Origin: Thermoplasmata archaeon
Lineage (GTDB): Archaea > Thermoplasmatota > E2 > JACPAO01 > JAHFTW01
NCBI GenBank assembly: GCA_023269235.1
Contig: JAHFTW010000003.1
Location: 165,999 to 229,998 of the forward strand
DNA length: 64,000 bases
Direction: 5' to 3'
Shown: positions 28,435 through 33,769 of the stretch, piece by piece
Position numbering within the stretch: position 1 is the stretch's first letter
Layout of the letters: each line of letters starts with the position of its first letter
Notes under the pieces: generated by a model
Told to the model about the DNA's origin: nothing
The model's input: only the letters and a program-made list of their open reading frames with translations
The model's database searches: none
Translations under genes and position numbers: made by a program

Positions 28435-28544
28435 ACCGTCGCATGGGGCCGCAGCAGGTTTTACGGCTTGGAGGGGGTCGGCGAAGATGCCGAATCCGTT
28501 ACCGGATCCGGCACCGCTTTCAACGATGGGGTGTGTGGGCCCGC

Positions 28545-29225
28545 GTGGCCGGCGTCATCGGTCTGCGGGGCCCCGACATCGAGAAACGCGATGCCCTTCG
28601 CGGGTACCAGGTCGTGTTCAAGGACGCGGACCGCCCCATCATCCGGCCTCACACGGGTCTGCCGGTTCTCTTCGTCGACGACGGCAAGGCGAAGGTCGAC
28701 CGTCACGTGTTCGGGTTCAGCCGCCGCTTCAGCAGCTTCAACGCCCGCGACGACAAACTGGAGGAAGGCAAACTCTGGATGGGCATGTTCGGCAAGGCGG
28801 GCCACCACGGCGTCGCTCCCGTGTCCTACATCCTGGAATGGTCGGAGTTCTCGGGTGAGAAACTGCCGTACCGCATCGAGCGCGCCGACGGCGCCGCCAT
28901 GTGCGTCCCCTCCCTCGTCGGCCGTTACTGGGAGGCCAAGGACACGCGTGCGGTGGCGCTCGTCACGATCACGCCCAACCCGTTCGTCGCCCGCTTCCAC
29001 GACCGCATGATCGGTCAGCTCGACGACCAGCACGTCGACGTCTGGCTCCACCCCGAAGACCACACTAAGGCCGAGCTTCGCGCCTGCCTCAAGGCGCCGT
29101 CGAACGATGACCTTGTCGCCATCCCGATCCAGGCCGACGTCGGCTCCGCCAAGTTCAGCGACACGTCCGCCCTCGAGGCCACCGGCAAGCCCCTCACGTG
29201 GAAGGACATCAAGGGGGCAAGTTGA
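28545..29225 (+). CDS. SRAP (SOS-response-associated peptidase, DUF159/YedK/HMCES) homolog, paralog 1, with Cys2 replaced by Ala
   Basis: 'FNARDDKLEEGKLW', 'ALVTITPNP' and 'FHDRMIGQL...VWLHPED' match the YedK 'INARVETA', 'LIVTAAA' and 'IHDRRPLVL' motifs. The start was taken at in-frame GTG 28545 by alignment with paralog 2 ('MAGVIGL' against 'MAGLIGL'). No Cys occurs near the N-terminus. Confidence 0.6.
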   Translation: MAGVIGLRGPDIEKRDALRGYQVVFKDADRPIIRPHTGLPVLFVDDGKAKVDRHVFGFSRRFSSFNARDDKLEEGKLWMGMFGKAGHHGVAPVSYILEWSEFSGEKLPYRIERADGAAMCVPSLVGRYWEAKDTRAVALVTITPNPFVARFHDRMIGQLDDQHVDVWLHPEDHTKAELRACLKAPSNDDLVAIPIQADVGSAKFSDTSALEATGKPLTWKDIKGAS

Positions 29226-29884
29226 TGGCCGGCTTGATCGGGCTCAAGAGCTCCGACATCGAGATCCAGGACGCGCTCCAGGTGACCAAGTTCGACTACG
29301 AAGGCAACTGGATTCCGCACCCCGTCGTCCGCCTCACCACGACGCTCCCCGTCGCCATCAACCGGGATGGCGAGCGCGTCGCGGTCCGCGCCCGCTGGGG
29401 CTTCCCCATCGGCGGAGGCCGCCCCGTCGGCAACTCGCGCGACGACAAGCTCGAAGTGAGCCCGATGTGGAAGAGCATGCTCGCGAAGAGCCCCTGCCTG
29501 GTCGCGGCGACTGGGGTCTATGAGCAGGCCGTCGTGGATGGCGAGAAACGGAATCTCTGGTTCCGCCGGCGCGATGGCAAGCCCATCGTCATGCCCGGCT
29601 TCGCGGCCCCGCGCACCTTCGACGGCGAGGCGCGGCTTTGCTGCAGCATCATCACGACGGAGCCGAACAAGTACTTCGGACGCTTTCACCCCCGGCAGGT
29701 CTGCGTCGTCAACCGCAAGGAGGCCGATGCCTGGATGGGCGCCACCACGCCGAAGGAGGCATTGGCCGTCCTGCACGCCCCGGCGGAGACGGAATGGGAA
29801 GCGGTCCCCGTCGATGGACGCATCTTCAAACCAGGACGCGTCGAGATGGAGCACCTCGTCCAGCTCGGACCCCCGATTCCGTAG
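29225..29884 (+). CDS. SRAP (DUF159/YedK) homolog, paralog 2, N-terminus 'MAGL' instead of 'MCGR'
   Basis: 'MAGLIGLKSSDIEIQDA...NSRDDKLEVSPMWKSM...FHPRQVCVV'. The ATG overlaps the paralog 1 stop (TGATG). The 3' end overlaps the convergent polB-like gene by about 59 nt. Confidence 0.65.
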   Translation: MAGLIGLKSSDIEIQDALQVTKFDYEGNWIPHPVVRLTTTLPVAINRDGERVAVRARWGFPIGGGRPVGNSRDDKLEVSPMWKSMLAKSPCLVAATGVYEQAVVDGEKRNLWFRRRDGKPIVMPGFAAPRTFDGEARLCCSIITTEPNKYFGRFHPRQVCVVNRKEADAWMGATTPKEALAVLHAPAETEWEAVPVDGRIFKPGRVEMEHLVQLGPPIP

Positions 29885-32198
29885 CCTGTTCGGGCCGTCT
29901 CGTGCGACCCATGAGCCACGCGACCAGGCCCTCCTCGGTGTATCCAAGAGGCGAGAACAGCGTCTCCGTCATGCGCGCGACGAGGCGGATGTAGGCGTCC
30001 ACGTCGTAGGTCTCCTGGGGCGACCCGAACCACGGCGAGCCTTGGCCCAGAAGCTCGACGGGGGTGACGCGGCCACGCCACGGGCCTTCGGTGCGGGTGA
30101 TGACGTACTTCACGTACTCCCCGGGGCGCCGCTCGGTGCCCGCGTTGCGCAGCGCCCACAGCGCGGCCTTGGTGCCCGTGTTGGAGGTGTACTCCTCGAC
30201 GGCCATGCGTGCTTGCACCATGAGGCCCAGGTCCTCGGCGCGCACTTCGCGGCGGCGCAGACGGTCGACGGCGCGCTTGGCGACCCGTAGCGCCAGCGGC
30301 ACCCGGGTTCGGAAGCCGGCCGCATCGTCGGCCTCCTGCAGGATGTCGAGCATGCCCTGCTGCACGTCGTAGAGGAACGGCGGCGTGTTGTGGCGCTGCA
30401 CCTCGATGCCGCGCACCTTGAGCTTGCCGTCCTCGAACTTGCCATAGTACCGGTTTGGGACGCCCACCTCGCTCTCCGTCGAGTGCGTCTTGGAGGGCAA
30501 GAGGACGAGCCACTTGTAGACGCCCTCGACGTCCATCGGGACGCCGACCTCCTTGGTGATTTTGCGGGCAATGGCGGCTGCGTCGTCGCGCGTCACGCCG
30601 GGTTTGTGCAGGAAGGCGCAATCGGTGAGCGCGTGGACCATCGTGTACCCCTCGGCCTGGGCGACTTCGCGGGCACGCGTCATGCCGGCGCGGCCATAGC
30701 ATTGGATGCTCTGGTGGACCTCGGCGCACCCGAAGCGCGCGTTGCGGTAACGGAAGTATCCGAAGCAGACGACGCCGAGCGCCTTGTGCTCCGACTTGAT
30801 GGCCTTGGCCTTCGCGCGCCGGTCCGCGTCGAGGTCGGCGCGCTTGAGGACGGCCTTCGCCCAGCGTCGGTGCGACCAGAGACGACGCAGGATCTCTGCC
30901 TGGTGGCCGTAGTGTTTCGTGCAGGTGTGGTAGCCGAGCTCGGGGATGACGGGCCCGTCGGGGCAGCAGCTGCAATTCATGGAGTCGCTGCTAAGGTTGT
31001 GCGCCACGACAAGGCTCGGGTAGTAGCCGGAGAAATCGCAGGCGGCCACGTCGTCGTAGAGGCCGGGCTCGGGGACCATGATCTGGCCGCCGCGGTCCAC
31101 GGCGCACAAGGTGGCGGCGGTCTTCCAGTCCTCCGTGAGGTTGCGCTTCCACGGCAGGGCCACGCCCCAGTCCGTGGCGAGGTCGACCTGCATCTGTTGC
31201 AGTGCGAAGCCCGCGCCGTTGCGGTTCACGTCCTGGGCGCGCCGGTTGGCGACGCGGGCAAGGTAGAGGATGCCGTGGAGGTCCTTGCGGTCGTCCTCGG
31301 AGTCGAGCGTCTTCTTCGCGAGGTCGATGTGCCAACGGCCGCGCAGATAGTAGGCGTGCGTCTTGTAGAGCCAGCGCCCGTAGGTGTGGATGCTCTTGCC
31401 CGCCTGGTCCGGCCGGTCCGGGGCCGGGTCGGGGGCGCGCCCGAGCCAGACTCCCTCGCGCAGTCCGAGCGCCTGGATGCGCGTCAGCAGGAACGGGATG
31501 TCGAAGCGATCGCCGTGCCGCGTGACCAGGACATCGGGGTCGTTCTGGCGGAGGAACCGGTCCAAGCCCAGGAGGGTGGCGCGTTCGGCGTCGGGGTCGC
31601 CGGGTTTAGGGCAGACGAGTTCTTGGTCGCCGAGCGTGATGGATTCCAAGGGGTCCGTGAAGGCGGGCGCGTGGCCGACTTGCCGGGCATGGACTTCCAG
31701 GCGCACGACGCGAAGGTCGGGGTCGGGATAATCGACGGTCCAGCGATCGTCCTCGGGATGCGGCTTCAGCTCCGGCCCGTCGGGGCCGACCACAAGGCGG
31801 CACATGCTCCACAAGCCCTGTTCGTGCATCCAACGGCACTCTTGGCTATGATCCACGTCGAAGAAGAGGAAGCCCTTCGTGTGCGTGCGGCGTCGCAGGT
31901 CGGTGGCGATGCTCCAGGTGTCCTGGAAGCGCTTGGGCTTGACCCGCAGAACCTCCTGGGCCGGGCCGCGCAACCAGAGGCTCGCCGTGTCGCGCCACAC
32001 CGCCTCGACGCGCTTGTCCTCCGCGAGGAGCCGTTGGGCGGCCTCCAGCGGCTCTTGGTCGCTGGCGACGCAGAAGCTAGGCTGGTACGGGACGTAGCGC
32101 TTCGTGGTCTGCAAGCCGTGTTTGACCCAGACGACCAAGCAGGAGCGGGTCGGGTGGGTGGACACGTCGAGCAACCAGGCCTGCGTTGGCGAGGGCAT
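29826..32198 (-). CDS. Family B DNA polymerase paralog with degenerate polymerase motifs (likely inactivated or divergent PolB)
   Basis: It aligns along its length with archaeal PolB (reference residues recalled from memory of Pfu Pol). The N-terminal domain ('AWLLDVSTH..CLVVWVK..YQPSFCVA') and motif A ('DFSGYYPSLVVAHNLSSDS') are clear. Motif B reads 'HKALGVVCFGY' where KxxxNSxYG is expected (the NS positions are VV). Motif C reads 'VHALTDCAF' where YGDTDS/YADTDG is expected (first Asp is Leu). The KKRY position reads 'SKTHS'. The Exo I position reads 'FFDVDHSQE' for 'FDIET'. The start was taken at ATG 32198 ('MPSPTQAWLLDV'); the upstream S/T/P-rich extension was rejected. Confidence 0.7.
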   Translation of the reverse strand: MPSPTQAWLLDVSTHPTRSCLVVWVKHGLQTTKRYVPYQPSFCVASDQEPLEAAQRLLAEDKRVEAVWRDTASLWLRGPAQEVLRVKPKRFQDTWSIATDLRRRTHTKGFLFFDVDHSQECRWMHEQGLWSMCRLVVGPDGPELKPHPEDDRWTVDYPDPDLRVVRLEVHARQVGHAPAFTDPLESITLGDQELVCPKPGDPDAERATLLGLDRFLRQNDPDVLVTRHGDRFDIPFLLTRIQALGLREGVWLGRAPDPAPDRPDQAGKSIHTYGRWLYKTHAYYLRGRWHIDLAKKTLDSEDDRKDLHGILYLARVANRRAQDVNRNGAGFALQQMQVDLATDWGVALPWKRNLTEDWKTAATLCAVDRGGQIMVPEPGLYDDVAACDFSGYYPSLVVAHNLSSDSMNCSCCPDGPVIPELGYHTCTKHYGHQAEILRRLWSHRRWAKAVLKRADLDADRRAKAKAIKSEHKALGVVCFGYFRYRNARFGCAEVHQSIQCYGRAGMTRAREVAQAEGYTMVHALTDCAFLHKPGVTRDDAAAIARKITKEVGVPMDVEGVYKWLVLLPSKTHSTESEVGVPNRYYGKFEDGKLKVRGIEVQRHNTPPFLYDVQQGMLDILQEADDAAGFRTRVPLALRVAKRAVDRLRRREVRAEDLGLMVQARMAVEEYTSNTGTKAALWALRNAGTERRPGEYVKYVITRTEGPWRGRVTPVELLGQGSPWFGSPQETYDVDAYIRLVARMTETLFSPLGYTEEGLVAWLMGRTRRPEQATESGVRAGRGAPSRRVLV

Positions 32199-32469
32199 CG
32201 AGGGCCTCCTGGAGGTCTTTCTTGAGCAGGTCCAGCTCCCGGCCTTGGTCGTCCATGAGGCGCATGCCTTCGAGGAGCATGGCGAGCATGACGGGCCGTT
32301 CGAAGTCCATGTGGGGGCGGCGGTTGATGGCGTTGGAGTGGCGGCGGGCGCGGCAGACGAGCTCGTCGAACCACGCCTGCTCCCGGGGTTGGAGTTCGCT
32401 GCGGAACTGCGCGTAGCGTTGCGTGAACGTGTCAAGGGCAATGGTGGTGGTGGGAGTGCTTTGGCCCAT
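32077..32469 (-). CDS. Hypothetical small protein (130 aa) immediately upstream of the polB-like gene
   Basis: Protein-like composition ('FDELVCRARRHSN...ELDLLKKDLQEALDALANAGL'), while the antisense frame is G/A/V-rich junk. The 3' end overlaps the proposed polB-like start by 122 nt, so either its end or the polB start is uncertain. Confidence 0.4.
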   Translation of the reverse strand: MGQSTPTTTIALDTFTQRYAQFRSELQPREQAWFDELVCRARRHSNAINRRPHMDFERPVMLAMLLEGMRLMDDQGRELDLLKKDLQEALDALANAGLVARRVHPPDPLLLGRLGQTRLADHEALRPVPA

Positions 32470-32490
32470 GGGGCACCTTAGGAGAAAGGC

Positions 32491-33195
32491 CTAGGCGGCG
32501 AGGGGTTTTGGGAGTCTGCGTGGGGGCAGTGAAACCACGAGCTCCGGCTCCTCCGGGACGAAGTCGAGCAGGGTCACGCGGCGGCGCAGGCTGGGGTCGA
32601 GGATGACGCCGGCGTCACTCGTCGCCCTCCACCGGTCCGCGACCGGCTGCGCGACCCAGCGGGCGTCCACGCCGTCGTGCGTCGCCTGCGCGAGAGCGGG
32701 GTGGCTCTTCCACCACCGTGGCATGTCCACGCCGAGCAGGATGGGAACGTGGAAGCGGCGTGCCGTCTTGGCGAGGTGGGCGAGGCTGAAGCGCGTGTAG
32801 TCCTCCTGCTCCCAGTCCTGGATCTCCTCGTGGCTCCACAACCGGTCGAAAGGATTGACGACGACGAGACCCGTTTCGCCCTCGCCCAGCTTGAGGTCCA
32901 GGTGGCGCGTGAGGACGGTGTCCCATTGGAACGGCGTCATGCAACGCTTGACGAGGAGCCGGTCGGCGCCATCGTCGGCGGCGTGGCCCCGCGTCATTTG
33001 CAACTCGGCCTGGTCGTAGGGGTTGAAGCTGTGGTCGCCGTCGCACCACAGGACATTTCCGGGCCGTTCACGCAGCGCGGTGTACGCGATCTCTTGGAAG
33101 AACTGCGCGAGGTGGCGGCCCTTCGCGCTCACCAGGGTGAGGCGGTCGGGCTCCAGGAACGTCGACCACACAACGTCCCGTGGTCGGCGGAGCAT
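32491..33195 (-). CDS. Hypothetical protein (234 aa), first gene of the polB-like cluster
   Basis: 'MLRRPRDVVWSTFLEPDRLTLVSAKGRHL...LWCDGDHSFNPYDQ...LVVVNPFDRLWSHEE...' has ordinary composition, strong GC3 bias and no recognisable motif. Its ATG at 33195 lies 21 nt upstream of the next ORF. Confidence 0.55.
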   Translation of the reverse strand: MLRRPRDVVWSTFLEPDRLTLVSAKGRHLAQFFQEIAYTALRERPGNVLWCDGDHSFNPYDQAELQMTRGHAADDGADRLLVKRCMTPFQWDTVLTRHLDLKLGEGETGLVVVNPFDRLWSHEEIQDWEQEDYTRFSLAHLAKTARRFHVPILLGVDMPRWWKSHPALAQATHDGVDARWVAQPVADRWRATSDAGVILDPSLRRRVTLLDFVPEEPELVVSLPPRRLPKPLAA

Positions 33196-33283: not shown

Positions 33284-33769
33284 ATGGGAAGCAGGCCTTT
33301 GGCGATGACGGAAAGTGCCCTGCGACCCATGGGGGAGAGGGCGGCGCTCTCCTTCCACGAGGCCATCCGGCGCATCGTCGCTCCCGGCGCCCCGGCCGGC
33401 CTCCACCCCGACCTGGAGCTCGCCCTCGCCATCCCACTCAACGCGGTGTGCGAGCGCCTCAAGGGACAGCCCGGGCTGACCCGGGACCGCCTCGTCGAGG
33501 AGGCCCGCCAGCCGTACGTCGAGCAGCTGCTCGCCGCGACCGGGGCAGCACCCGCCGGCCTCCTCCTGGCCGCCGACAGCCTCGCCGTCGGCTTCGGCGC
33601 CGGCCGCGTCGTGCGCGACCTCGCGCGCCCCGGCCGCCTAGTCCTCCTCCCGGCGGCCCCGTCCCCTCCGGGTGCCTTCGTCCGTCTCCTGAACGCCATC
33701 CTTGACGGCCTGCCCGACCTGCCTGACATGCCGGCGAAGGCCGCCCGCGACGACCCCAGTTACGCTTAA
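33284..33769 (+). CDS. Hypothetical protein (161 aa), divergent from the polB-like cluster
   Basis: Strong GC3 codon bias; 'MGSRPLAMTESALRPMGERAALSFHEAIRRIV...'; no motif. Overlapping minus-strand ORFs look like junk. Confidence 0.45.
   Translation: MGSRPLAMTESALRPMGERAALSFHEAIRRIVAPGAPAGLHPDLELALAIPLNAVCERLKGQPGLTRDRLVEEARQPYVEQLLAATGAAPAGLLLAADSLAVGFGAGRVVRDLARPGRLVLLPAAPSPPGAFVRLLNAILDGLPDLPDMPAKAARDDPSYA

What the first reader, a model, noticed from the sequence alone, without database searches (positions are those of the whole stretch)
32077..33195. Two uncharacterised genes co-oriented and tightly linked upstream of the PolB paralog; the second overlaps the polB start by 122 nt
The 234 aa ORF (32491-33195) and the 130 aa ORF (32077-32469) both have protein-like composition and strong GC3 bias, whereas their antisense frames look like junk. 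The 130 aa ORF runs 122 nt into the conserved PolB N-terminal coding region ('AWLLDVSTH'). That implies either an unusually long out-of-frame overlap or a frameshift or sequencing issue. Either way these are candidate dedicated partners of the PolB paralog.
Basis: seen in the sequence. Interest (0 to 1): 0.55.

Follow-up and report, generated by a model that had tools for sequence, protein, structure and literature searches.

The report
PolB2 partner genes, dual-coded overlap
The two genes upstream of the polymerase are its already-described partners, iRadA and PPB2, of the archaeal damage-tolerance polymerase PolB2; the 122-base overlap is real and conserved, and it encodes a lineage-specific tail of PPB2 in a second reading frame of the polymerase's first 41 codons.

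Summary
ORF234 (33195-32491, minus strand), ORF130 (32469-32077) and a 790-aa family B polymerase (32198-29826) form one co-oriented cluster. ORF130 overlaps the polymerase start by exactly 122 nt, out of frame.

The genes are not unknown. This is the published iRadA-PPB2-PolB2 "PolB2 mutasome" operon (Makarova 2014; Timinskas 2025).
- ORF234 is an ATPase-dead Rad51/RadA core.
- ORF130 is the three-helix PPB2 (arCOG07300, Pfam DUF8156).
- The polymerase has the PolB2 hallmark DTD->LTD.

The overlap is not a sequencing error. Nine other Thermoplasmatota species genomes have the same 122- or 104-nt overlap in the same register.

What appears to be new is the PPB2 tail of about 35 aa (AGLVxRRV...LGRxGQxRL), which ordinary ~90-aa PPB2 lacks.
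- A tail-less relative has a 4-nt GTGA junction and differs by one net nucleotide, which fits birth of the tail by stop loss and run-on into polB2.
- In overlap genomes, polB2 Leu codons are fixed as rare TTG to keep tail residues.
- In 13 genomes, inserted genes or a short spacer separate the genes, yet the tail persists (pN/pS 0.58 in its own frame).

Verdict: a known system, with a new dual-coding variant of moderate interest.

The parts
32491..33195 (-). iRadA: catalytically dead Rad51/RadA-core protein, 234 aa
   Evidence: 145 homologues. AF2 model has pLDDT 90.7. Foldseek top hits are DMC1/RadA/RAD51 ATPase cores, TM 0.67, E 2e-10. A profile search against PDB sequences hits the RadA ATPase domain at E 0.008.
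33106..33129 (-). Degenerate Walker A position of iRadA (SAKGRHLA; family consensus GxxxxLRGF, no GKT/S)
   Evidence: Alignment A2; coordinates. The Walker B position (VVVNPFD, 32845-32865) has no conserved Asp.
32557..32580 (-). PIP-like clamp-binding motif of iRadA (RVTLLDFV here; family QVTLLD[FY])
   Evidence: The motif is found in 97 of 120 homologues, with Q at the first position in 68 of them. It lies in a low-pLDDT C-terminal region with a short helix at 209-212. This matches the iRadA PCNA motifs reported in PMC11791011.
32077..32469 (-). PPB2 (arCOG07300 / Pfam DUF8156), 130 aa including a lineage-specific C-terminal tail
   Evidence: 205 homologues carry a precomputed PF26485 hit, and PF26485 is named DUF8156. 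AF2 gives three helices at 7-24, 28-48 and 57-95. A profile search reaches 80-95 aa proteins that start MGRT..., and also iRadA-PPB2 fusions.
32449..32469 (-). Conserved N-terminal arm of PPB2 (MGQSTPT; a variant of the published MGRT motif)
   Evidence: 113 of 120 homologues start MGQS. M1, G2, Q3, S4, P6 and T7 are invariant in A1.
32077..32184 (-). PPB2 C-terminal tail (residues 96-130, AGLVARRV...LGRLGQTRL...VPA, plus stop); absent from ordinary PPB2
   Evidence: The tail motif GQx[RVMLQ][LI] is present in 116 of 120 homologues. The tail has low pLDDT (42-64) and is probably flexible. It is retained in loci without a long overlap, with pN/pS 0.58 in its own frame.
32077..32198 (-). 122-nt dual-coding segment: PPB2 residues 91-130 and PolB2 residues 1-41 in frames offset by one base
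   Evidence: Codon-level dual constraint is shown.
32205..32209 (-). Shine-Dalgarno-like GGAGG, 6 nt upstream of the PolB2 ATG and inside the PPB2 coding sequence
   Evidence: Read from the sequence. GGAGG/GGAGGA is conserved at the same place in the 10 overlap loci.
29826..32198 (-). PolB2-group family B DNA polymerase, 790 aa
   Evidence: Pfam DNA_pol_B and exo1. Best NCBIfam models are 'type B DNA-directed DNA polymerase' PRK05761.1-4 and PRK05761.1-2. 31% identity, E 2e-67, over the N-terminal 400 aa to a catalogued Thermoplasmata PolB2, PNX53386.1.
30621..30629 (-). Polymerase motif C: LTD in place of DTD (first catalytic Asp replaced)
   Evidence: Alignment to the P. abyssi PolB chain 4flt_A; coordinates. 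The motif A Asp (DFSGYYPS, 31014-31037) is kept.
28533..29884 (+). Two tandem SRAP (abasic-site shielding) genes, convergent with polB2. The second overlaps the polB2 3' end by 59 nt.
   Evidence: Pfam SRAP, E 1e-20 to 1e-24. Gene calls. SRAP genes flank PolB2 in 9 related loci. SRAP enrichment near polB2 is reported in PMC11791011.
27322..28434 (-). PA0069/Rv2578c-type radical SAM protein next to the SRAP genes (context only)

Best explanation
The cluster is a type 1a (iRadA-PPB2-PolB2) PolB2 'mutasome' operon of a high-GC Thermoplasmatota archaeon.

By homology with the published model, the proteins form a translesion-synthesis complex:
- PolB2, which extends primers past damage.
- One ATPase-dead RadA paralog, iRadA, which carries the PCNA-binding motif.
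- A trimer of the small coiled-coil protein PPB2, whose N-terminal arm reaches between PolB2 and iRadA.
Complex formation is inferred, not shown here.

What is specific to this clade is shown from sequence comparison. PPB2 has an extra tail of about 35 residues, encoded by the same nucleotides as PolB2 codons 1-41, one base out of register.

The most likely history (inferred) has three steps.
1. The ancestor had the usual 4-nt start/stop junction (GTGA).
2. A net 1-nt deletion removed the PPB2 stop, so translation ran on into polB2 until the next stop.
3. The new tail acquired a function and is now maintained. In overlap genomes this is done by forcing rare TTG Leu codons and a fixed GTC Val codon in polB2. 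In genomes where mobile genes later split the junction, a duplicated copy of the segment keeps the tail.

PolB2 is translated from its own Shine-Dalgarno sequence and ATG inside the PPB2 reading frame. Ribosomes finishing PPB2 therefore pass over the PolB2 start. This could lower PolB2 output relative to PPB2, whose predicted stoichiometry is 3:1 (speculative).
For: Identity:
- iRadA has the Rad51/RadA core fold without Walker A or B.
[quoted passage not shown] It carries DUF8156 hits and has profile links to MGRT-type 80-95 aa proteins and to iRadA-PPB2 fusions.
- PolB2 has LTD for DTD and its best match is a catalogued PolB2.
- Gene order is conserved in 20+ loci, with SRAP neighbours.
- The operon and complex are described in PMC4104785 and PMC11791011.

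The overlap is real:
- Ten species share the same register.

Dual coding:
- PolB2 Leu codon 2 of the AWL anchor is TTG in 10/10 overlap loci. In the 15 other loci it is CTC/CTT/CTG (Fisher 3e-7).
- Leu codon 14 is TTG/TTA in 10/10 overlap loci against 2/14 (7e-5).
- Val 18 is GTC in 10/10 overlap loci.
- Pro 33 is CCT in 8/10 overlap loci, and this codon supplies the PPB2 stop.

The tail is selected on its own:
- In loci without the long overlap, pN/pS is 0.58 in the PPB2 frame against 1.21 and 1.58 in the other frames. The +1 frame there acquires stop codons.

Origin:
- The tail-less 94-aa PPB2 in L030/L031 is followed by PolB2 through a GTGA junction.
- The distance from the PPB2 start to the PolB2 Trp codon is 293 nt there and 292 nt in all overlap loci, and the cores align without gaps.

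Resolution by duplication:
- L011 and L026 keep a relic PolB2 N-terminus in the +1 frame of the tail, with 78-82-nt direct repeats flanking the inserts.
- The inserts encode PIN/MazE, HicAB, Fic, glyoxalase, a DDE transposase and HxlR.
- Overlap and separated states are interleaved on the tree.
Against: - There are no expression, ribosome-profiling or proteomic data, so translation of the tail is inferred.
- The tail is predicted with low confidence and has no recognisable fold or known motif. Its function is unknown.
- Within overlap loci the PPB2 frame shows pN/pS 1.35, so the PolB2 constraint dominates there. The overall synonymous-rate reduction in the overlap is small: the ratio to downstream codons is 0.78, against 0.82 in loci without the long overlap.
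- The selection test uses only 24 codons, uncorrected distances and related sequences.
- The tree is a midpoint-rooted NJ tree built on about 180 aa.
- Complex formation and trimerisation were not modelled here.
- The window's own iRadA has R instead of Q at the first PIP position.
Confidence: 0.85

Rival explanations
1. The tail is a neutral run-on. In a 70% GC genome stop codons are rare out of frame, so PPB2 simply reads on into polB2. The extra residues would be translated but have no function, and their apparent conservation would be a by-product of PolB2 N-terminal conservation.
For: - GC3 of the PPB2 frame collapses in the overlap.
- pN/pS in the PPB2 frame is 1.35 in overlap loci.
- The tail has low pLDDT and no fold match.
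- The stop position varies, giving products of 124 and 130 aa.
Against: - The tail persists with the same motif in the 13 loci where it no longer overlaps polB2 and in two more (L024, L029) with only an 11-17-nt estimated overlap. There it shows pN/pS 0.58 in its own frame, while the relic PolB frame decays and picks up stops.
- Overlap loci fix rare TTG Leu codons that preserve V and LG of the tail. After separation these codons revert to CTC in several lineages.
- The GQxRL motif is present in 116 of 120 homologues.
Confidence: 0.2
2. An assembly or sequencing indel creates a false overlap. The true gene would either end before polB or be fused in frame to it.
For: None beyond the unusual length of the overlap. 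The three assemblies of this genome may share the same reads.
Against: - Nine other species-level genomes from different studies have the identical register, 292 nt from the PPB2 start to the PolB2 Trp codon.
- 48 of the 120 listed homologous proteins are exactly 130 aa.
Confidence: 0.02
3. A programmed +1 ribosomal frameshift in the overlap produces a PPB2-PolB2 fusion protein, so the separate tail is not the functional product.
For: - Both frames are open from 32441 to 32077.
- One PPB2-PolB2 fusion is reported elsewhere (PMC11791011).
- An internal SD precedes the region.
Against: - I saw no shift-prone or pause site when reading the sequence.
- PolB2 has its own conserved SD and start codon.
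- No PPB2-PolB2 fusion-length protein appears among 149 family representatives.
- The tail is kept in frame 0 after separation.
Confidence: 0.03
4. ORF130 is a winged-helix (HxlR/MarR-like) transcription regulator of the operon, with the tail forming the wing.
For: - A weak profile hit to the HxlR-type protein 4gcv over residues 65-113, E 0.25.
- One JGI record calls a homologue a MarR-family regulator.
Against: - AF2 gives one long helix at 57-95 and no beta-wing.
- Foldseek finds no wHTH match.
- The family links to PPB2, including iRadA-PPB2 fusions.
Confidence: 0.03

Closest known systems
PolB2 mutasome operon, type 1a iRadA-PPB2-PolB2 (Timinskas, Timinskas & Venclovas 2025, PMC11791011; Makarova et al. 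2014, PMC4104785)
   Same: - Same three genes in the same order.
- An ATPase-dead RadA core that lacks the N-terminal domain.
- A three-helix small protein with a conserved N-terminal arm.
- A polymerase whose first Asp of DxD is replaced.
- SRAP genes nearby.
- A PIP-like motif at the iRadA C-terminus.
- Thermoplasmata operons of this type are listed in their supplement.
   Different: - PPB2 here is 130 aa rather than ~90 aa, with an added C-terminal tail.
- The N-terminal motif is MGQS rather than MGRT.
- PPB2 and polB2 overlap by 122 nt instead of being adjacent.
- Neither paper's main text mentions an overlap, a tail or a split PolB2. The held part of the 2025 supplement also has no occurrence of 'overlap'.
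Sulfolobus/Saccharolobus islandicus Dpo2 (PolB2), a damage-induced TLS extender polymerase (PMC7390963, PMC8764526)
   Same: Same polymerase group, with a disrupted DxD motif (IID there, LTD here). The expected role is in damage tolerance.
   Different: It comes from a distant lineage and is a shorter enzyme. No biochemical or genetic data exist for the Thermoplasmatota enzyme. Activity here is inferred only.
E. coli Pol V mutasome (UmuD'2C-RecA) and bacterial ImuA-ImuB-DnaE2 cassettes (ImuA comparison from my own knowledge)
   Same: Same architectural logic: a TLS polymerase, a RecA-family protein (an inactive RecA-like protein in the case of ImuA) and a small accessory subunit, all encoded together.
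   Different: The polymerase families differ (Y or C rather than B) and the small subunits are unrelated. They are analogous, not homologous, apart from the RecA fold.
Overprinted (dual-coding) same-strand gene overlaps, well documented in viruses and rare in cellular genomes (general knowledge)
   Same: - One DNA segment is read in two frames.
- The younger frame has atypical composition.
- Codon choice in the older gene is constrained by the younger.
   Different: - Here the new frame adds only a C-terminal extension to an existing protein.
- The event can be polarised using a tail-less relative.
- The overlap has been undone repeatedly by duplication, which gives a natural control.

Membership tests
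PolB2 group of archaeal family B polymerases | Family B polymerase domains | tested here: met
   Pfam DNA_pol_B at E 1.8e-18 and DNA_pol_B_exo1. Aligns to archaeal PolB crystal structures at E 4e-37.
PolB2 group of archaeal family B polymerases | First Asp of the catalytic DxD (motif C) replaced | tested here: met
   LTD aligned to DTD of P. abyssi PolB. Residues 524-526.
PolB2 group of archaeal family B polymerases | Groups with catalogued PolB2 rather than with PolB1/PolB3 | tested here: inconclusive
   31% identity, E 2e-67, over the whole N-terminal 400 aa to the catalogued PolB2 PNX53386.1. PDB PolB3-type enzymes align well only from residue ~312 onwards. The best NCBIfam models are the unnamed 'type B' subfamilies. 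No phylogenetic tree was built.
PolB2 group of archaeal family B polymerases | Proofreading exonuclease active site lost | tested here: inconclusive
   Judged by eye from the sequence, as only the Exo II stretch is covered by an alignment. Exo I reads FFDVDH (D-x-D instead of D-x-E) and Exo II reads HGDRFDIPF (N->H, Asp kept). Exo III was not located.
PolB2 group of archaeal family B polymerases | Loop with a beta-alpha iRadA-binding motif followed by D(K/R) | not tested
   It could not be located reliably without a structural model of PolB2.
iRadA (inactivated RadA of PolB2 operons) | Rad51/RadA ATPase-core fold | tested here: met
   Foldseek hits DMC1/RadA/RAD51 at TM 0.65-0.68, E 2e-10, using a model with pLDDT 90.7.
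iRadA (inactivated RadA of PolB2 operons) | No N-terminal helical (HhH) domain | tested here: met
   The protein is 234 aa and the model starts directly with the core beta1 strand at residues 19-23. The best hits are isolated RadA C-terminal ATPase domains.
iRadA (inactivated RadA of PolB2 operons) | Walker A / Walker B residues missing | tested here: met
   There is no GxxxxGK[TS]; the consensus is GxxxxLRGF. The Walker B position is variable (N/A/T/H/S/V).
iRadA (inactivated RadA of PolB2 operons) | Encoded beside PPB2 and PolB2 | tested here: met
   In 18 of the 27 related loci iRadA lies upstream of PPB2.
PPB2 (arCOG07300, Pfam PF26485/DUF8156) | Small all-alpha protein of three helices | tested here: met
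   AF2 gives H7-24, H28-48 and H57-95.
PPB2 (arCOG07300, Pfam PF26485/DUF8156) | Highly conserved N-terminal arm (MGRT motif) | tested here: met
   The variant MGQS[TA]PT is invariant in this clade. The profile aligns from residue 1 to proteins beginning MGRTVPT/MGRTNPT.
PPB2 (arCOG07300, Pfam PF26485/DUF8156) | Sequence membership in the family model | tested here: met
   PF26485 (DUF8156) is precomputed for all 120 listed close homologues. The local Pfam copy lacks this model, so the window protein itself could not be scored.
PPB2 (arCOG07300, Pfam PF26485/DUF8156) | Length about 90 aa, ending after the coiled coil | tested here: not met
   130 aa. Residues 96-130 are an added tail, and distant members match only positions 1 to about 90. 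This is a typical property rather than a strict criterion.
PPB2 (arCOG07300, Pfam PF26485/DUF8156) | Forms a trimer, and a 1:1:3 complex with PolB2 and iRadA | not testable with these tools
   No multimer prediction was available.
Functional dual-coding (overprinted) overlap | The overlap is conserved in register across species | tested here: met
   Ten species, with 292 nt from the PPB2 start to the PolB2 Trp codon in all.
Functional dual-coding (overprinted) overlap | Codon usage of the older gene is constrained by the newer frame | tested here: met
   TTG against CTC at two Leu codons (Fisher 3e-7 and 7e-5), and a fixed GTC Val codon. The sequences are related, so the p-values are optimistic. 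Reversion after separation occurs in several clades.
Functional dual-coding (overprinted) overlap | The newer frame is under purifying selection | tested here: inconclusive
   pN/pS is 0.58 in the PPB2 frame where the long overlap is absent, but 1.35 inside overlap loci. The test uses 24 codons and uncorrected distances.
Functional dual-coding (overprinted) overlap | Both products are translated | not testable with these tools
   Needs Ribo-seq or proteomics.

The most novel reading that the evidence does not exclude
The C-terminal tail of PPB2 is a peptide born de novo. A 1-nt deletion at a 4-nt start/stop junction made PPB2 read on through the first ~40 codons of polB2. The new 35-residue tail became functional.

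It has since been kept in two ways. In some genomes it is dual-coded, which distorts polB2 codon usage. In at least five lineages the junction was duplicated when toxin-antitoxin and other mobile genes inserted, and the duplicated stand-alone copy now encodes the tail.

This would be a rare cellular, archaeal example in which the birth, fixation and later 'un-overlapping' of an overprinted coding segment can all be read from extant genomes. The overlap might also tune the PolB2:PPB2 ratio.
Probability: 0.5. Interest if true: 0.6.

Novelty: new variant of a known kind. Interest (0 to 1): 0.4.

Why it matters
- For annotation: in overlap genomes PPB2 is easily missed. It was not called in two public assemblies of this genome. 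Surveys of PolB2 operons that rely on called proteins would therefore score such genomes as lacking the third subunit.
- For the PolB2 mutasome: this clade shows that PPB2 can carry a conserved extra peptide at the far end of its coiled-coil pillar. This suggests a further, unidentified interaction that the published models do not include.
- For genome evolution: the locus offers a polarised and replicated case of overprinting in a cellular genome, with built-in controls (the same segment with and without overlap).

None of this changes the basic picture of the system, which is already described.

Tried and rejected
- Pfam and NCBIfam scans of both small proteins gave nothing useful. The local Pfam copy lacks PF26485.
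- A literature search for 'PF26485' found nothing.
- Foldseek of the PPB2 model gave only chance matches, with E > 2.
- The weak HxlR/wHTH lead was rejected on the AF2 topology.
- A global comparison of synonymous differences in the overlap versus downstream codons barely separated overlap loci from the others (0.78 vs 0.82). Only site-specific codon choices were informative.
- I first read the 0.5-2.4 kb interruptions of PolB2 orthologues near residue 455 as inteins. This was rejected. The frame contains stops, the inserts hold separate genes, and the two polymerase halves have their own stop and start.
- Look-up of P0256 found no record. L032 (P0246) was too short to show its polymerase neighbour.
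- No second PolB was found among ten other large ORFs of the window.

Full report
**Observation**

The window is about 70% GC. On the minus strand there are three co-oriented ORFs:
- a 234-aa ORF at 33195-32491
- a 130-aa ORF at 32469-32077
- a family B polymerase whose conserved N-terminus (MPSPTQAWLLDV...) starts at ATG 32198

The 130-aa ORF therefore runs 122 nt into the polymerase gene. The polymerase is in the +1 frame relative to it.

Third-position GC is 0.75-0.95 in the frame shared by the two small ORFs, down to about 32280. It then falls to about 0.5 while the polymerase frame rises to 0.93. Codon usage in the overlap is therefore set by the polymerase.

Two other public assemblies of this genome give identical protein-level matches. 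Their gene callers left the 130-aa ORF uncalled, presumably because of the overlap.

**What the genes are**

ORF234:
- It has 145 homologues, nearly all from Thermoplasmatota metagenomes, and no Pfam hit.
- Its family profile weakly matches the RadA ATPase domain.
- A confident AF2 model (pLDDT 90.7) superposes on DMC1/RadA/RAD51 cores at TM ~0.67 and E 2e-10.
- The Walker A lysine and the Walker B aspartate are absent across the family, and there is no N-terminal HhH domain.

ORF130:
- It has 205 homologues, each with a precomputed PF26485 hit. PF26485 is DUF8156, a model missing from the local Pfam copy.
- AF2 predicts three helices at 7-24, 28-48 and 57-95, followed by a low-confidence tail.
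- An exhaustive profile search reaches 149 cluster representatives. The distant ones are 80-95 aa, align from residue 1 to about 85 and begin MGRTVPT/MGRTNPT. A few are iRadA-PPB2 fusions.

The polymerase:
- It keeps the motif A aspartate but has LTD in place of DTD in motif C.
- It aligns over its whole N-terminal 400 residues to a Thermoplasmata PolB2 catalogued in the literature (31% identity, E 2e-67).

**Match to the literature**

These are the three components of the PolB2 operon.
- Makarova et al. 2014 (PMC4104785) described PolB2 together with an inactivated RadA and the ~90-aa helical arCOG07300 protein.
- Timinskas et al. 2025 (PMC11791011) named the partners iRadA and PPB2. They modelled a PolB2:iRadA:PPB2 complex at 1:1:3. 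They noted the conserved N-terminal MGRT arm of PPB2, PCNA-binding motifs at iRadA C-termini, and SRAP genes nearby.

All of these features recur here:
- The gene order is iRadA-PPB2-PolB2, their type 1a.
- PPB2 has an invariant N-terminal arm, in the variant MGQS.
- A QVTLLD[FY] motif sits near the iRadA C-terminus in 97 of 120 homologues, and reads RVTLLDF in the window.
- Two SRAP genes lie immediately downstream.

Their supplement lists Thermoplasmata operons of this type.

**The overlap is real**

A scan of species-representative genomes gave 27 Thermoplasmatota loci, and 25 loci including the window's own carry both PPB2 and PolB2.
- In ten of them, the window included, PPB2 overlaps polB2 by 122 nt (104 nt in two cases).
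- In all ten the distance from the PPB2 start to the PolB2 Trp codon is exactly 292 nt. A GGAGG-type Shine-Dalgarno sequence and a start codon for PolB2 sit inside the PPB2 frame.

A sequencing or assembly artefact is excluded.

**The tail is part of the protein**

Ordinary PPB2 stops after the third helix. In this clade an extra 25-40 residues follow (AGLVxRRV..P.P..LGRxGQxRL), and the GQxRL-type motif is present in 116 of 120 homologues.

In 13 of the 25 loci PPB2 and polB2 are separated by 9 nt to 3.4 kb, and in two more (L024, L029) the estimated overlap is only 11-17 nt. The tail is still there in all 15.
- In those loci the tail segment has pN/pS 0.58 in the PPB2 frame, against 1.21 and 1.58 in the other two frames. 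The former PolB frame accumulates stop codons.
- In overlap loci the PolB2 frame dominates (0.33, against 1.35 for the PPB2 frame).

Individual codons nonetheless betray the second frame:
- The Leu codons in AW-L and S-L-VVW are the rare TTG in 10/10 overlap loci. They are mostly CTC in the other loci (Fisher 3e-7 and 7e-5). TTG is what yields V and L-G in the tail.
- Val in W-V-K is always GTC, which gives G-Q in the tail. Loci without the long overlap often have Ile there.
- A rare CCT Pro codon supplies the PPB2 stop in 8/10 overlap loci.

On an NJ tree built without the overlap codons, the overlap and separated states are interleaved. The reversion to CTC has therefore happened several times.

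**Origin and later history (inferred)**

A more distant, tail-less PPB2 (94 aa, ending ...LQEARSAPA) is followed directly by PolB2 (VSVGWLLDVY...) through a GTGA start/stop overlap.
- Its core aligns without gaps to the window protein.
- The distance to the PolB2 Trp codon is 293 nt there instead of 292 nt.

A net 1-nt deletion at the junction would remove the stop and shift PPB2 into the frame seen here. This creates the tail by run-on into polB2. The PolB2 N-terminus is clearly the older reading, because it is conserved in PolB2 of other Thermoplasmata that are only 31% identical.

Later, the junction was pulled apart repeatedly.
- L011 and L026 still show a relic PolB2 N-terminus (MPSPTPAWLFDVYPHPRE...KHG) in the +1 frame of the tail. 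Direct repeats of 78-82 nt flank the inserted DNA, and L011 has a third partial copy.
- The inserts encode MazE/PIN and HicAB toxin-antitoxin pairs, Fic, a glyoxalase, a DDE transposase and an HxlR regulator.

**How it probably works**

By homology, the three proteins form a DNA-damage-tolerance polymerase complex that is recruited to PCNA through iRadA. The adjacent SRAP genes point to abasic-site handling. This is taken from the literature and was not tested here.

PolB2 is translated from its own SD and ATG inside PPB2. Ribosomes completing PPB2 pass over that site, which might limit PolB2 synthesis relative to the trimeric PPB2 (speculative).

The tail is likely a flexible peptide at the distal end of the PPB2 coiled coil. 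Its partner is unknown. It does not resemble a PIP box, and the weak wHTH lead is not supported by the model.

**Verdict**

The finding is correct as an observation, and its 'partner' interpretation is right. The system itself is already known. The conserved dual-coded PPB2 tail, its likely birth by stop loss, and its repeated uncoupling are not mentioned in the main text of the two papers that describe the operon. They amount to a new variant of moderate interest.

Noticed in passing
L006:7999-9503, L007:6190-6681, L009:7746-9494, L012:8502-9275, L013:5199-7580: In five related genomes PolB2 is split at the fingers tip (window residues ~446-462, KRADLDADRRAK) into two genes. The N-half ends ...WAKAVLKKAK(xx)*. 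The C-half restarts about 5-10 residues before AKAKAIKSEHK. Unrelated genes lie in between: a DsbA-like protein, a hemolysin-III-like membrane protein and a glyoxalase-like protein, all judged by eye. Both halves stay 68-81% identical to the window enzyme, so this looks like a functional two-piece PolB2 rather than an intein or a pseudogene. The main text of PMC11791011 does not mention it.
   Followed up: partly
L011:414-2577 and L026:6274-7395: The PPB2/polB2 junction segment occurs as direct repeats of 78-82 nt at 77-84% identity, flanking inserted toxin-antitoxin and regulator genes. L011 has three copies about 1 kb apart. The arrangement resembles an array of cassettes inserted one after another at the same site. 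The insertion mechanism is unknown.
   Followed up: partly
window 32199-32490 (equivalent to L001:10706-10997): The public ENA and Logan assemblies of this genome call no gene between iRadA and PolB2. PPB2 is therefore missing from their gene calls, presumably because of the 122-nt same-strand overlap.
   Followed up: yes
window 29826-29884: The 3' end of polB2 and the 3' end of the second SRAP gene overlap convergently by 59 nt.
   Followed up: no
window 28533-29884; L029:8758-11726: SRAP genes are tandemly duplicated next to polB2, and the two copies are only ~27% identical. One relative, L029, has four SRAP-like genes in a row.
   Followed up: no
iRadA homologues, alignment A2 columns ~255-275: Many iRadA homologues end with a further conserved C-terminal motif, (F/W)RTRIVHP. 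It lies after the PIP-like motif and is missing from the window's copy, which ends ...LPPRRLPKPLAA.
   Followed up: no
window 33284-33769 (+): A divergently transcribed 161-aa ORF lies upstream of iRadA. It has no Pfam or NCBIfam hit. Among the loci compared it was found only in this genome's own assemblies.
   Followed up: no
L032:132-907: A PPB2-like protein (P0246, 125 aa) starts MDASQPTT and has a different tail. It lies downstream of a 132-aa gene that is not iRadA-like. The contig is too short to show whether a polymerase follows.
   Followed up: no
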